Of a stretch of DNA of 64,000 bases, positions 20,401-26,400 are shown in pieces. Made by a program: the position numbers. How positions within the stretch are numbered: the first letter of the stretch is position 1; each line of letters begins with the position of its first letter. Origin of the DNA: Rhina ancylostomus (Eukaryota); contig JARFYF010000118.1 in NCBI GenBank assembly GCA_030265395.1, forward strand, positions 17,899,070 to 17,963,069. The letters run 5' to 3'.

Positions 20401-23400
20401 ATAGTCAGCATTTCAGGTCGAGACCCTGCATCAGGACCTGCATTGGGAATTAACAATTATGTTTGAAACTGTGTGCTAAATCCTGAATTTTTAACAGGCT
20501 TGTATTAATAGAATGGCGATCATTTAGTACCTGTTTTACATTACCCCCTTTTTCCACTACCCCCCACATTGTACATATATAGCACTTTTTATAACTGTAG
20601 AACATCCTAAAGCATTTTGCAACCACTAAACAACAATAACAACACCCTGTACTTCTATCACACCTCCAAAACAACATTGTGCACCCAGAACCAAAAAACT
20701 GATAGGCTTGCTTAAAGAGATAGCTTTTAAGGAGCGAATTAAAGAAGGAAAAAGAGTTTTAGGAAGGGAATTTCTCAAGTTTGGAGACTTGGCAGCTGAA
20801 GGCATAGGCATCGATGTTGAAACAATTATAATCAGGGATTGTTAAGAAGCGAGTATTGGAGAATTATCTTTGCAATCTCCTCCAACATCAGAGAACTATA
20901 AGGCTGGAGGATCTAATGCTTTGGCAAGATTTGAAAACAAAATAGGAATTTTAAAATCAAGGTGTTATTTGAGTGGGAGAAACCTTAGATCAGCAAGTAC
21001 AGGGCTAATGGATGAACAGATCTCAGTGGGAGTCAGAATGTTAACAGCAGAGTTTTGGATGACCTCAGATTTACTGAGGAGGGAACGTAGAGACTAGCCA
21101 GGTGCGGGCTGGAATAGACAAGCCTACTCATGATGGGGATCTCAGTAGCTGATGAGCTGAGCAGCTGGAGTGTTACAGGGGGGTGCGTATAGGTGTTGGT
21201 AGTGATGTACAGAGATGTGGTTGGAAGTTCATCATAGGATTAAAAATATCACCAGACTTGCAAAGAGTCTGGTGTAATTTCAGGCAGAGGCCTGTGAGAG
21301 GGATGGAATTGTGGATAGGACCAGTGTTTTTGGCTGTCAGAATCAAATTCTCATTCTGATATTTTTTGCAACATAGAAGGAGGCCCATCAAATCTATGCC
21401 AGCTCTCAGACTAATCCCATCAATCCCATTCCCCTACATAGATCCCTACAACTTATTCTTACCAAACTCCCCCCTGATCCTCATACCACCCATCAATAAT
21501 TGGGGTATTTTACAGTGGCCAGTTAACCCACCCACACATTGGTCTTTGGAATGAGGGAACAAACTGGAGCAACCAGGGGCAACCCCTGTAGGCACATGGG
21601 GAATGTGCAAACTCCACAGAGACAGCTGTGGAGATCAGAATCATGCCCAGGTAGCTAGAGCTGTAGAACTGTGCCACCCAAGAAAGTCTGGCCAAGGAGG
21701 TCTCCAGAGTAAACCTTATGGATAGGCAAAGGGATGCCATTGAAAGGAACTCTCTGACCGCAACTTACTAGATAAGAATGGAACCAAATGAGCACAATCC
21801 CAGTCAGCTAGCCTGGTGATAAGGCTTTGGAGGAGGATGGTACATTTGATAATGTTCTAGGCTGAAGGAGGTTGAGAAGAACAAAGTCTTATCATAGGTC
21901 ATCTTGAACTTGATAAAGAACACTTCCATGAGGGAAACCGGGTTGGAGAGATTCATNNNNNNNNNNTTTGGAGAGGAAAGGGAGTTTGGAGATGGTGCAG
22001 TAATTTGGAAATAAAGGTGTTGGGGGGTGGGGAGATGCTAAGGAATAATTTTGGGCAGTGTGGTGATTAATTAGTTTTAAAGTGCAGTTACCGTTGTAAT
22101 ATGGGAAAAGCCTATTGCTGTAATCCCCTGTATTTCTGTAAGTGTAATAAAGGACAGAGAATTTACTGCCCTTTAATCTGTTTAAGATTTACTGCTCCAG
22201 CATAAAATATACCTTGAACATAATTTTTCAAATGAAGCTGACATTGGGCAGGTCAGTAACACTGCCGTGTATTTCCAATATGTCATTTAGAATTCTTCTC
22301 TGTATTTAATCAGTTCTTTAAAACTTAATATTTTCTAGCATTGCAATATAAGAAGATTGATTCAAATTCAAAGATATTGAAAACGCATTATTAGCTTGGA
22401 TATATCAAGAAAGCAGAATTGTTGTGATGTATTTTACCTCTCATATATAACTGAACAACTAAAACAGTTTATATAACAATTCAAATAAGATCAGGACATT
22501 CTTCCAGTAACTGAGATAACATTCTTCCCTCAGTAAACACCACAAAGAAATAAATCATCCAGCCATTCAATCATTTGCTCAGTATGCCATCTTGCTGGGA
22601 ATCCACATTATAGTTACAGCATTTCAAAAGCAAGATGCCTTTGGATGTCTGGGGCATCTGTTAAACTGCAATAGAAATAGAAACACCCTTTCCAGGTTTT
22701 TTAAAATAATGATTATTGCCACAAGATGGTAGAAGGCTTATCACTTTTGGGAAAAAGGCCTTAAACTGTCAAAGAGGAGGTTGGATATTTTCTTCAATGC
22801 AGGACAAATGTAGAGAGTATAACATCAGCCTCTTTCCTATAGTTTGTATCCATTGGTTACAAAGCTGAAATAATTGGAATGGCTGCCTACAAAAGATTCT
22901 CAGCAGAGGAATGGTAAAAACTGAAGGAAAATAGAGAAGAGACTTCAAATTGGAAAATGAGTAACAAAATTTTCTGACGGTTTAAAATCAGAATTATATC
23001 CAATGATATATTAAATCAGAATCATGCAATTTATAAATCATTGTACCTTGACAATTTCTAATATCTCCTGCTTGTTGATTGTGCCATTGCCATCCACGTC
23101 ATAAAGAGAAAAAGCCCATTCAAGCTTCTGCGAAGTTTTTCCAGAAGAGGTGAGGTGAAGGGCAATGATGTACTCCTTAAAATCCAAGGTCCCATCACAG
23201 TTGGTATCAAAGCTCCTGAAAACATGTTGAGCATATTCTTTGGGATCTGCATCTGGGAAGAAGCCAGAGTAGATTTGCTGAAATTGTGGCATGGTGATCT
23301 TACCATTTGGGCATTCCTTCAAGAAAGTTTGGTACCACACACAGAGCTCCTCTTCTGTGTATTTGGTGTTGAGTTTGAGATCTTCCAAAATGTCTTTGGA

Positions 23401-26400
23401 GAGGGCGCTGCTTTTGGTGTTTCCCATTTCCAGCCGCAGTGGGGCAAGAAGAAGAAAGGGCAACGGAGGACTTCTCCTAACTCAACACTGCACAGACTGG
23501 CACCAGGTGCATACTTACATGAACATATTAAAGCTTGATGGATTAGAGGGATTAGCCTTCATCTCCTTAAGGCTGACATTCACACAGACAGCAGAATTCC
23601 TATTAACAGAGCAAGCTAATTAGCTAATGGAAGTAACTGTAACTAAAGCATGAAATCCTAAAAATATCAACAAAACACATCTCCCCTTCGGTACATTTAA
23701 TTTTCCTTGCAGTGTTTTTTAACACTCATGATTACTATCAGTCCTCTGTCCCCTCTGAATTGGAATTAGAAAAATATGTTACTTTTGTTATTTGTTCTCA
23801 GGATGAGAATGATACTGGCAAGACCAGATTTCTTGCCAATGTTGAACTGCCCTGAGATGGAGGTGGTCTTTCCCCTGGAATGGCTGCAATCCTTATGGTG
23901 ACCATGCCCCCACGTTGACCCAAAGAAGGGCCTTGACTCAATGGCTATTAAAAACTGCTCAATATCCAAGATCCATTGCAGTTGGTATCAAAGCTGATGA
24001 AGACATGTTGGGAAGAACAGCACATGGTGAACTCAAACAATAGGATGTGCCTCATAAGGGGAATGGAGGTGCTGATGTTACATTGCTGCTCTAGTCCCCC
24101 TTGGAGCTAGAGGTAACGGGAAGTGGTGTGAAAGCCATTCCTACTGCTTTGCAAACTTCAGAGATGGTTTTTGATTAGAATTCTGAATTAGCTAATGTAG
24201 TCATAAGGTCATAGAGCCACAGAGTCAAGCAGCACAGAAACAGGTCCTTCCTCTCACCGCATCAATGCTGACCTTTTTGCCCACCTACACTATCCCATGT
24301 TCCCACATTAGGACCATATCCTTCCATGCCTTGCCTATTTAAGTGTCTGTCTAAGTTCCTCTTAAACGTAGTGATTGTATCTGATTCCACCACCTTCTCT
24401 GGCAGCAAGTTCCAAATATCAACCATCCTCCGTATAAAAAAACTTATTGCTCAGGTCCCCTTTAAAATTCCTCCCTCTCTCCTTAAACCTATGCCCTCTT
24501 GTTTTCGATAGCTTTCCATGGGGANNNNNNNNNNNNNNNNNNNNNNNNNNNNNNNNNNNNNNNNNNNNNNNNNNNNNNNNNNNNNNNNNNNNNNNNNNNN
24601 NNNNNNNNNNNNNNNNNNNNNNNNTATCTTCTACCCAATGGAAGAGGAGAGAAGAGAGAATGACCTGGGTGGGTGGGGTCTTTGATTATGCTGGCTGCTT
24701 CGCCAAGACAACAAGAGGTAAAGACAGAGTCCAAGGAGGGGAGGCTGGTGTCCGTAATGCACTGGGCTGTGTCCAAAACTATCTGCAGTTTCTTGCGGTC
24801 CTGGGCATAGCAGTTGCTATACCAAGCCGTGATGCATCCAGATAGGATGCTTTCTATGGTGCATCGGGAAAAGTTGGTGAGAGTCAAAGGGGACAAACCC
24901 AATTTCTTTAGCTTCCTGAGGAAGTAGAGGCACTGATGAGCTTTCTTGTCCATGGCATCTACGTGATTTGACCAGGACAGGCTGTTGATGACGTTCACTC
25001 CCAGGAACTTGAAGCTCTCAACCCTCTCGACCTCAGCACCATTGATGTAGACAGGTCCATGTGCACCGCCCCCTTTCCTGAAGTCAATGACCAGCTCTTT
25101 TGTTTTGTTGACATTGAGAGAAAGGTTGTTGTCATGACACCATTTCACTAAGCTCTCTACCTCCTTCCTGTACTCCAACACTGACTGATTGTAAAGTTCA
25201 CTCTGCGCACTTGACTGCCCCGATAACCTTTCATCCCCTTGTTTATCAAGAACCTATCTACACCTGATTTCAAATTATTCTTATACTCTCCTTCCATCTA
25301 CCTTTGAGAAAGAAAGTTCAAAACACTCAGATTTTTTAGCTTCATTTAATACTTAAATAGTCCTTTTTTATAAACAATAACCCTTGCACAGTTCTAAGTT
25401 GTCCTTCAAGAGGAAGCATCTTCTCTACCTCCACCTATCTAGACCCCTCTGGATCTTGTGTATTTCAATCAAGACACCTCTCATTCTTCCATTCACCAGT
25501 GGATACAAGTCTAGCCTTGACAATTTTTTCTCCTATGAAAACAAGGTAATAGTCTGCCAAACCTTTTCTTAATCGCTTTCAATACACCAATTTCCTTCCT
25601 TCACAAGGAGCCGAAAACTATGTGTGACAATGCGCTTTATCACTAAAAAATAACCTCCTTACTTTAGTATTCAGTTCCCCTTAGAATAAAAAAGCATTTT
25701 GTTAGCTTTCCTAATCACTTGCTGTATCTGCTTTTCAGGCTTTTATGAACCATGTACAAGGATACTCAGATCCTCTGCATCTCAAAGTTCTGCAATCTCT
25801 CACCATTTAGATAATATGGTATTTTCCTGCCAAAACGGATAATATCACAATTCATCTCATTGTAGTCCATTTGCCGTATCTTTGAATCAGAATCAGGTTT
25901 AATATCACTGATATATGTCATGAAATATATTGTTTTGTGGCAGCAGTAAAGTGCAAGACACAAAGATATAAAAATTACTATCAGTTACAAAAATAAGTAA
26001 ATAGTGCAAAAGAGGAATAACGAGGCAGTGTTCATGGGTTCATAGACAGTTCAGAAATCTGATGGTGGAGGGGAAGAAGCAGTTCCTGTAAAGTTGAGCT
26101 TACCCACTCAATTAACCTATTTACATCCCTTTTGTTCTTTCACTACTTTCCTAACTCTCACTCTCTCTCATCAGAAAATTTATTACCATATGTTTGCTGT
26201 CTTCATCAAAGTAATTTATATCAATGATTAAAAAAAAATGAGCCCTTCAGCACCAATCCCTGTGACACACCACTCATTGCAAACAGAAAAAGACCCATAT
26301 ATGCCTATTCTTGGTTAGCTGTTAGCCAGTCAATCTTTTATTCCCTCAAAACAAAGATGTGACTTAATTCGCATGGCTGAACATGCATGGAGTTCAGGTG

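What the first reader, a model, noticed from the sequence alone, without database searches (positions are those of the whole stretch)
23047..23630. Phototransduction Ca2+-sensor gene (recoverin/visinin family) embedded antisense in ADGRB1
Seen: an uninterrupted recoverin-type exon 1 with intact myristoylation and EF2/EF3 motifs lies on the - strand between the ADGRB1 ICL3 cassette exon (13925) and the TM6-7 exon (34675). Only a 10-N gap (21957-21966) separates it from the cassette exon. Known: human RCVRN is at 17p13 near GAS7, and human ADGRB1 is at 8q24 with no such nested gene that I know of. Inference: this is either the visinin (cone-type paralog) locus retained in a cartilaginous fish, or a relocated recoverin. 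From recalled sequences the residues look mixed: LYDVDGNG and LKLNTK are recoverin-like, while SSALS and EYIIALHLTSSGKT match chicken visinin. The locus therefore bears on which paralog sharks and rays kept.
Basis: partly seen in the sequence, partly recalled or inferred. Interest (0 to 1): 0.75.

Follow-up and report, generated by a model that had tools for sequence, protein, structure and literature searches.

The report
Recoverin-type first exon inside ADGRB1 intron
An intact first exon and photoreceptor-style promoter of a recoverin-type calcium sensor sit backwards inside an intron of the brain receptor gene ADGRB1, but the rest of that gene is not in the assembled sequence, so this is mainly an unusual address for a known kind of gene.

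Summary
On the minus strand, 23427..23047 is one open 381-nt exon of 127 aa. It starts at the first ATG of its frame and ends at a GT donor. Its best solved relatives are human and bovine recoverin (E 4e-68; 97/126 and 99/126 identical), well ahead of hippocalcin-type sensors. The myristoylation signal, the disabled EF1, the EF2/EF3 calcium ligands and all listed switch residues are intact. A tandem CTAATCC pair, unique in the window, lies 113-128 nt upstream. The host is an adhesion-GPCR gene on the plus strand. Its exons at 13925..14023 and 34675..34848 join in frame, and a later exon matches a solved ADGRB1 peptide 14/14.

The rest is not shown. I found no exon 2 or 3 on either strand of the 64 kb. 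The species is not established. No visinin sequence was available, so the recoverin-versus-visinin question could not be tested. I favour recoverin. The literature reports recoverin but no visinin in cartilaginous fish, and functional rcvrn in six shark genomes. The only possibly new element is the nested position, which I did not find in print. Rivals are a visinin-locus gene, an orphan partial duplicate, and a mis-join at the 10-N gap.

The parts
23047..23427 (-). First coding exon (127 codons) of a recoverin/visinin-family neuronal calcium sensor. It holds the start codon with A at -3 and G at +4, the myristoylation signal, the disabled EF1 (Cys39-Pro40), the EF2 loop (residues 74-85) and the EF3 loop (residues 110-121).
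   Evidence: Searches give the sequence and translation. One search gives recoverin as the best PDB match, 4.2e-68. One search gives the Pfam EF-hand families. One search gives the PROSITE EF-hand matches. One search gives the ligand pattern D,N,D,E and D,D,N,E, which is met. One search gives the residue list, which is met except for F23Y.
23045..23046 (-). GT splice donor directly after codon 127 (AAG|GTACAA). The frame stops two codons further on.
23540..23555 (-). Two tandem CTAATCC motifs (23549-23555 and 23540-23546), 113-128 nt upstream of the ATG and on the gene's strand. They match the CRX/OTX-type photoreceptor promoter site, which I give from established knowledge. A TTTAATAT stretch follows at 23532-23525.
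   Evidence: the pair occurs once in the window, and none of 100 shuffles had a match; the single motif is at chance level (8 found, 7.6 expected). Binding and activity are inferred.
23614..23625 (.). Perfect 12-nt palindrome AGCTAATTAGCT with a TAATTAG homeodomain-type core, about 190 nt upstream of the ATG.
   Evidence: one match in the window, but 17 of 100 shuffles gave at least one match at up to 1 mismatch. This is weak support on its own.
13925..14023 (+). Host gene: a 99-nt exon of 33 codons in the third intracellular loop of the adhesion GPCR. Its length and phase allow it to be skipped in frame.
   Evidence: The upstream exon 5288..5373 ends in GG, and either T (13925) or G (34675) completes a Gly codon.
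34675..34848 (+). Host gene: the TM6-TM7 exon.
   Evidence: Pfam 7tm_2 2.4e-8, profile positions 205-250 of 250; only adhesion GPCRs are matched in PDB, with ADGRD1 best at 1.5e-6.
23954..24010 (-). Decayed 58-nt copy of the EF2-coding part of exon 1 (23172..23229), in the same orientation, about 530-590 nt upstream of the ATG.
   Evidence: blastn 82.8% over 58 nt, E 2.2e-10, and tblastn 11/15 identical; phmmer E 0.002. One search gives the sequence.

Best explanation
This is the working 5' end (promoter plus first coding exon) of a genuine recoverin/visinin-family gene. It is most likely the animal's recoverin (rcvrn). It is transcribed from its own photoreceptor-type promoter in the antisense direction, from inside the 20.6-kb ADGRB1 intron between the loop-3 exon and the TM6-7 exon.

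The encoded protein would act as a calcium-myristoyl switch. In the dark, Ca2+ bound at EF2 and EF3 releases the N-terminal myristoyl group and exposes the hydrophobic patch. The protein then sits on disc membranes and holds rhodopsin kinase (GRK1/7) inactive. When light lowers Ca2+, it lets go and the pigment is phosphorylated.

Shown here: the exon, its motifs, its family, its strand and its position relative to the host exons.

Inferred: the promoter activity, the mechanism (taken from the family), the assignment to recoverin rather than visinin, and that exons 2-3 exist. Those exons would lie outside the assembled sequence, either in one of the N gaps downstream (21957-66, 11359-11419, 7670-7769, 3340-3439) or beyond the window's start. 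In that case the gene's first intron would also span ADGRB1 exons.
For: - Family: recoverin is the best PDB match at 230 bits, against 173 bits for the next sensor family. Counted from the printed alignments, 97/126 residues are identical to human recoverin and 99/126 to bovine.
- Calcium ligands: EF2 and EF3 match the pattern that PMC6170504 section 2.3.3 gives as invariant in the family.
- Switch residues: Gly42, Gly96, His68 and Leu108, and 9 of the 10 hydrophobic-patch residues listed in PMC6172410, are present. Position 23 is Tyr, as that paper reports for zebrafish Rec1a/1b, which are the recoverin-type pair.
- Gene features: intact start context, no earlier ATG in the frame, and a GT donor. 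It is not a retrocopy.
- Promoter: the tandem CTAATCC pair is unique in the window, with 0 of 100 shuffles matching.
- Host exons: plus-strand exons lie on both sides and join in frame. One exon matches the ADGRB1 peptide of 6idx 14/14.
- Assembly: only one 10-N run lies between exon 1 and the loop-3 exon.
- Literature (passages read): rays express recoverin at a high level, and no visinin was found in cartilaginous fish (PMC6170504). Functional rcvrn was retrieved from six shark genomes (PMC12770505).
Against: - No exon 2 or 3 was found on either strand of the 64 kb. I used phmmer at maximum sensitivity over 3491 frames (only exon 1 and the 58-nt relic scored below E 1), short C-terminal motif scans and a charged-segment scan. 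These scans are crude, because no full-length family sequence could be obtained.
- In bony vertebrates RCVRN lies beside GLP2R (157 of 166 mammalian assemblies, PMC8312260), not in ADGRB1.
- The 2.56-kb contig with the exon (21967-24524) is bounded by N runs on both sides.
- The reef shark eye transcriptome in PMC6170504 Table 1 showed no recoverin transcript, so loss in some sharks is possible.
- The species and transcription are unverified.
Confidence: 0.55

Rival explanations
1. It is the visinin (cone-type) paralogue, retained at its ancestral locus in a lineage thought to have lost it. Alternatively, it is a recoverin-like sequence occupying the visinin position.
For: The locus is not the RCVRN-GLP2R neighbourhood. 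PMC6170504 places the zebrafish visinin genes (rcvrn2/rcvrn3) on chromosomes 16 and 19. From my recall only, the two zebrafish adgrb1 copies are on those same chromosomes. No tool result excludes this rival, because no visinin sequence was available.
Against: Identity to mammalian recoverin is 77-79% over 126 residues. From recall only, that is higher than recoverin-visinin pairs usually show. Tyr23 is as in the zebrafish recoverin-type pair; this is weak evidence. PMC6170504 found no visinin in any cartilaginous-fish transcriptome or database entry. PMC12770505 lists only rcvrn for sharks.
Confidence: 0.15
2. It is an orphan partial duplicate. A DNA-level copy of the promoter and exon 1 of the real recoverin gene landed in this intron. 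It has no downstream exons and makes no full-length protein.
For: Exons 2-3 are absent from 23 kb of downstream sequence and from the whole window. A decayed 58-nt second copy of part of the exon lies just upstream, which shows local duplication of this sequence. The location is unusual for the family.
Against: The exon has no stop, frameshift or loss of any checked functional residue. The promoter motifs and the donor are intact. That is expected under selection, or for a very recent copy only. The assembly is fragmented, with 15 N runs in 64 kb, so small exons can easily be missing.
Confidence: 0.15
3. It is a scaffolding error. The 2.56-kb contig 21967-24524 belongs to another locus and was inserted into the ADGRB1 intron.
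For: The contig is flanked by N runs, of 10 N and 100 N. Its right end is repeat-derived: a LINE-like tail in the frames at 24262-24524. No repeat or gene feature could be shown to continue across either gap. The missing exons fit this reading.
Against: The left join is a 10-N run among runs of 3, 5, 10, 11 and 61 N. That pattern looks like read-pair size estimates rather than blind joins; this is my inference. The block 11420-24524 carries the ADGRB1 loop-3 exon in the correct order and orientation relative to the other host exons.
Confidence: 0.12

Closest known systems
Recoverin (RCVRN; bovine and human, PDB 1rec/1jsa/1iku, 2d8n; frog S-modulin is the same gene according to PMC6170504)
   Same: It is the best match by a wide margin, with 97-99 of 126 residues identical. 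It shares the myristoylation signal, the Cys-Pro-disabled EF1, the EF2/EF3 ligand pattern, and the switch and patch residues.
   Different: Only the first 127 residues were found, so EF4 and the C-terminal tail are unseen. Position 23 is Tyr, not Phe. The genomic address is inside ADGRB1 instead of beside GLP2R.
Visinin (cone paralogue; zebrafish rcvrn2/rcvrn3, chicken visinin)
   Same: It belongs to the same family with the same EF-hand ligand pattern, and presumably has the same exon plan and mechanism.
   Different: Visinin is reported absent from cartilaginous fish and mammals (PMC6170504).
Hippocalcin / neurocalcin / VILIP group of neuronal calcium sensors
   Same: It shares the four-EF-hand myristoyl-switch architecture and aligns over residues 5-126.
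   Different: The scores are clearly lower: 166-173 bits against 218-230 for the recoverins.
Nested antisense genes in long introns of neuronal genes (a general arrangement)
   Same: A small gene start with its own promoter lies on the opposite strand inside a 20.6-kb intron of a large gene.
   Different: Only the 5' exon is located. If the rest lies further down the strand, the two genes interleave rather than one nesting simply inside the other.

Membership tests
Recoverin/visinin subfamily of neuronal calcium sensors | N-terminal myristoylation signal (Met-Gly, small residue at position 6) | tested here: met
   MGNTKS at residues 1-6. The consensus is from established knowledge.
Recoverin/visinin subfamily of neuronal calcium sensors | EF2 ligands D,N,D,E and EF3 ligands D,D,N,E at loop positions 1, 3, 5 and 12 | tested here: met
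   Residues 74/76/78/85 are D,N,D,E and residues 110/112/114/121 are D,D,N,E. This matches the pattern stated in PMC6170504 section 2.3.3. Both loops also match the PROSITE EF-hand pattern.
Recoverin/visinin subfamily of neuronal calcium sensors | EF1 unable to bind calcium | tested here: met
   Cys39-Pro40 lie at the start of the EF1 loop, and EF1 does not match the PROSITE EF-hand pattern.
Recoverin/visinin subfamily of neuronal calcium sensors | Closer to recoverin than to any other solved calcium sensor | tested here: met
   230 bits for recoverin against 173 bits for hippocalcin-like 1, 129 for NCS-1 and 102 for GCAP1.
Recoverin/visinin subfamily of neuronal calcium sensors | Switch residues Gly42, His68, Gly96 and Leu108, and the ten-residue hydrophobic patch | tested here: met
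   All four switch residues and 9 of the 10 patch residues are present. Position 23 is Tyr, as in zebrafish Rec1a/1b (list from PMC6172410; sequence).
Recoverin/visinin subfamily of neuronal calcium sensors | Complete protein of about 190-200 residues with a fourth, non-binding EF-hand | tested here: not met
   Only 127 residues are located. No exon 2 or 3 was found in the window on either strand. The scans were motif-based, and the sequence has 15 N runs, so absence from the genome is not shown.
Recoverin clade (as opposed to visinin clade) | Placement in the recoverin clade of a family phylogeny | not testable with these tools
Recoverin clade (as opposed to visinin clade) | Conserved neighbourhood with GLP2R (mammals) | tested here: not met
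   The whole 64-kb window lies within one adhesion-GPCR gene. RCVRN flanks GLP2R in 157 of 166 mammalian assemblies (PMC8312260). The neighbourhood in cartilaginous fish is unknown to me.
ADGRB1 (BAI1) as host gene | Secretin-family 7TM exons plus the BAI1-specific cytoplasmic tail | tested here: met
   7tm_2 hits for 34676-34848 (2.4e-8), and weaker, below-cut-off hits for 4994-5179 (0.0024) and 5209-5394 (0.035). The translation of 61594-61635 is 14/14 identical to the ADGRB1 peptide 6idx_C (E 1.4e-4). Discrimination from ADGRB2/3 over that peptide rests on recall. PDB holds no ADGRB 7TM chain.
Nested antisense gene | Host exons on both sides on the opposite strand, in one continuous sequence | tested here: inconclusive
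   The host exons flank the exon and join in frame. However, N runs at 21957-66, 24525-624 and 27111-210 lie within the intron, and the 3' end of the inner gene is not located.

The most novel reading that the evidence does not exclude
This lineage's recoverin-family gene does not sit at the RCVRN-GLP2R locus of bony vertebrates. It sits inside ADGRB1, at what may be the ancestral visinin position. If so, cartilaginous fishes did not simply 'lose visinin and keep recoverin'. The ADGRB1/2/3 gene trio would then give the fixed positional anchor that PMC6170504 says is missing for placing visinin within the phototransduction paralogon.
Probability: 0.15. Interest if true: 0.6.

Novelty: new member of a known kind. 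Interest (0 to 1): 0.35.

Why it matters
Recoverin and visinin are the rod-type and cone-type calcium sensors that set how long activated visual pigment lives. Which paralogue each vertebrate lineage kept, and on which duplicated chromosome segment, is part of the argument about when rod and cone signalling diverged. PMC6170504 states that it could not securely place the visinin region in the paralogon.

A recoverin-family gene firmly anchored inside ADGRB1, itself one of three duplicated genes, would be a useful positional marker. If instead this is simply the already catalogued shark rcvrn, or an assembly artefact, the finding adds little beyond a synteny note.

Tried and rejected
**Retrocopy.** Rejected. 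The frame ends two codons after a GT donor at the exon boundary.

**Chance open frame.** Rejected, with E 4e-68.

**Search for exons 2-3.**
- phmmer --max of P0001 against all 3491 stop-to-stop frames of 12 aa or more gave only exon 1 and the 58-nt relic below E 1.
- Short C-terminal motif scans on six frames gave no credible hit.
- A charged-segment scan gave none.
I did not repeat it.

**ESM Atlas look-up of the exon.** It returned only generic EF-hand and neuronal-calcium-sensor clusters. It gave no help on the paralogue.

**Rfam at gathering thresholds over the window.** 0 matches.

**Repeat continuity across the two gaps that flank the exon's contig.** The frames either side of 24525-24624 look like tails of different LINE families, so they say nothing for or against the join.

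**Literature on the nesting.**
- 'rcvrn2'/'adgrb1': no paper among the 15 listed paired the two.
- 'rcvrn'+'adgrb1': 1 paper, an unrelated cancer gene list.
- 'recoverin'/'BAI1'/'nested': unusable, because 'recoverin' also matched 'recovering'.
- 'adgrb1a/adgrb1b/rcvrn2/rcvrn3': 5 papers, none with an adgrb1 term.
- PMC6170504 contains neither BAI1 nor ADGRB.
- PMC4554923 and PMC2200141 gave nothing useful.

**Not attempted because irrelevant.** The phage, plasmid and E. coli collections and the prokaryotic genome contigs.
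Full report
**The observation.**
- Read on the minus strand, the window has an ATG at 23427-23425 in a good start context (A at -3, G at +4).
- 127 open codons follow, ending in AAG directly before GTACAA at 23046.
- The stop-to-stop frame is 23038..23481. It holds no earlier ATG and closes two codons past the donor.
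- This is therefore a spliced first exon, not a retrocopy.
- The coding exon is 23427..23047.

**What the exon encodes.**
- phmmer against all PDB chains puts recoverin first: human 2d8n at 4.2e-68 and 230 bits, and bovine entries at 218-226 bits.
- Next come hippocalcin-like 1, hippocalcin and neurocalcin (166-173 bits), NCS-1 (about 126-129), KChIPs and GCAPs.
- Counting the printed alignments gives 97/126 identities to the human protein and 99/126 to the bovine one.
- Pfam sees EF-hand families only.
- Of the three PROSITE EF-hand matches in all six frames of the 64 kb, two are this exon's EF2 and EF3. The third is an Asp-rich stretch at 58539-58577.
- The EF2 and EF3 ligand positions are D,N,D,E and D,D,N,E. 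PMC6170504 (section 2.3.3, read in full) gives exactly this pattern as conserved across the family.
- The residues that PMC6172410 (passages) names as critical for the calcium-myristoyl switch are Gly42, His68, Gly96 and Leu108. All are present.
- Nine of that paper's ten hydrophobic-patch residues are also present. Position 23 is Tyr, the substitution the paper reports for zebrafish Rec1a and Rec1b.
- The N-terminus MGNTKS fits the myristoylation consensus, and Cys39-Pro40 disables EF1.

**Upstream sequence.**
- Two CTAATCC motifs lie in tandem at 23555-23549 and 23546-23540 on the gene's strand, 113-128 nt before the ATG.
- The single motif is no more frequent in the window than chance (8 found, 7.6 expected).
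- The pair is unique, and none of 100 shuffles produced one.
- From established knowledge, CTAATCC is the CRX/OTX site typical of photoreceptor promoters.
- A TTTAATAT stretch follows at 23532-23525.
- A 12-nt palindrome with a TAATTAG core lies at 23614-23625, but 17 of 100 shuffles give such a match at one mismatch.
- Promoter activity is an inference.

**The host gene.** On the plus strand I located these exons:

| Exon | Notes |
|---|---|
| 5080..5147 and 5288..5373 | TM5 region; weak 7tm_2 hits at profile positions 147-198, below the curated cut-off |
| 13925..14023 | 99 nt, third intracellular loop |
| 34675..34848 | TM6-7; 7tm_2 2.4e-8, positions 205-250 of 250 |
| 40340..40435 | |
| further tail exons near 44295, 46233-47012 and 61594 | |

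- The phases fit. 5373 ends in GG, and either 13925 (T) or 34675 (G) completes a Gly codon. 14023 ends in AT, and 34675 supplies the G of Met.
- PDB holds no ADGRB 7TM chain, so the TM6-7 exon matches other adhesion GPCRs only.
- The translation of 61594-61635 is 14/14 identical to the 25-residue ADGRB1 peptide of 6idx (E 1.4e-4).
- That this tail is of the B1 type rather than B2 or B3 is otherwise my recall.
- I searched these exons one at a time. I made and searched no joined model.
- The recoverin-type exon thus lies antisense in the 20.6-kb intron 14024..34674.
- The only N run between it and the loop-3 exon is 21957-21966.

**What is missing.**
- I could not find exon 2 or exon 3.
- phmmer at maximum sensitivity with the exon-1 protein against 3491 frames gave only exon 1 and a short relic.
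- Short motif scans for the conserved C-terminal half in all six frames and a scan for charged segments gave nothing credible on either strand.
- These scans are weak. The remaining nucleotide collections hold only prokaryotes, phages and plasmids.
- Three things remain open as a result: whether the exons sit in the gaps at 21957-66, 11359-11419, 7670-7769 or 3340-3439; whether they lie beyond the window's start; or whether they do not exist at this locus.
- The N runs were not filled or looked up.

**Assembly.**
- The window has 15 N runs: seven of 100, and others of 61, 11, 10 (three), 5 and 3 (three).
- I infer that this mixture shows size-estimated joins plus fixed-length joins from a second scaffolding step.
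- The block 11420-24524 contains both the ADGRB1 loop-3 exon and the recoverin-type exon. It is broken only by the 10-N run, so their antisense relation depends on that one join.
- I could not show any feature continuing across either gap.

**Which paralogue.**
- It found recoverin at a high level in a ray eye transcriptome, neither gene in a reef shark, and no visinin in any cartilaginous fish.
- It places zebrafish recoverins on chromosomes 3 and 12 and zebrafish visinins (rcvrn2/3) on 16 and 19.
- It mentions neither BAI1 nor ADGRB.
- PMC12770505 (passages) retrieved functional rcvrn from the Greenland shark and five other shark genomes.
- PMC8312260 (passages) finds RCVRN beside GLP2R in 157 of 166 mammalian assemblies.
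- The 77-79% identity to mammalian recoverin, Tyr23 and this literature make recoverin the better guess.
- The unusual address, and my unverified recollection that the zebrafish adgrb1 copies share chromosomes 16/19 with the visinin genes, keep the visinin-locus reading alive.
- The supplementary alignment and trees of PMC6170504, and the supplementary figures of PMC12770505, may bear directly on this. I could not see them.

**Species.**
- No tool here could identify the organism.
- The window is not human or mammalian, since its recoverin exon is only 77-79% identical to the human and bovine proteins.
- G+C is 38.5%, and LINE-type frames are frequent.

**Novelty.**
- The gene family, its mechanism and the presence of rcvrn in shark genomes are known.
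- I found no printed statement of a recoverin-family gene nested in ADGRB1 (searches; one search was uninformative).
- Public genome annotation, which I could not consult, may already show it.

**Verdict.** A real, intact recoverin-type first exon with a photoreceptor-style promoter lies antisense in an ADGRB1 intron. A complete nested gene, its paralogue identity and the join remain to be shown.

Noticed in passing
window 23954-24010 (minus strand): A decayed 58-nt copy (82.8% identical) of the EF2-coding part of exon 1 lies 530-590 nt upstream of the ATG in the same orientation. Similarity does not extend beyond about 19 codons. It is a trace of an old local duplication of the exon.
   Followed up: partly
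window 5080-5147, 5288-5373, 13925-14023, 34675-34848, 40340-40435, about 44295, 46233-47012, 61594 onward (plus strand): The whole window lies inside one adhesion-GPCR gene, running from the TM5 exons to the cytoplasmic tail. The 99-nt loop-3 exon can be skipped in frame, because Gly is kept at the junction either way. No final exon was seen, so the gene runs past 64000.
   Followed up: partly
window 24625-25253, 24262-24524, 25157-25297, 18534-18875 (minus strand): There are several LINE-type reverse-transcriptase and ORF2-tail fragments. The frame 24625-25253 hits Pfam ALKBH8_N (4.1e-9), which here marks a transposon-derived segment rather than a host gene. The frames either side of the 24525-24624 gap look like tails of different elements.
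   Followed up: partly
whole window (15 N runs): The N-run lengths fall into two kinds: seven of exactly 100, and eight of 3-61. This suggests two scaffolding stages. It matters for how far each join can be trusted.
   Followed up: no
window 58539-58577 (minus strand): The third PROSITE EF-hand pattern match in the window is an Asp-rich run in a short frame. It is most likely chance.
   Followed up: no
whole window: No Rfam family reaches its gathering score on either strand.
   Followed up: yes
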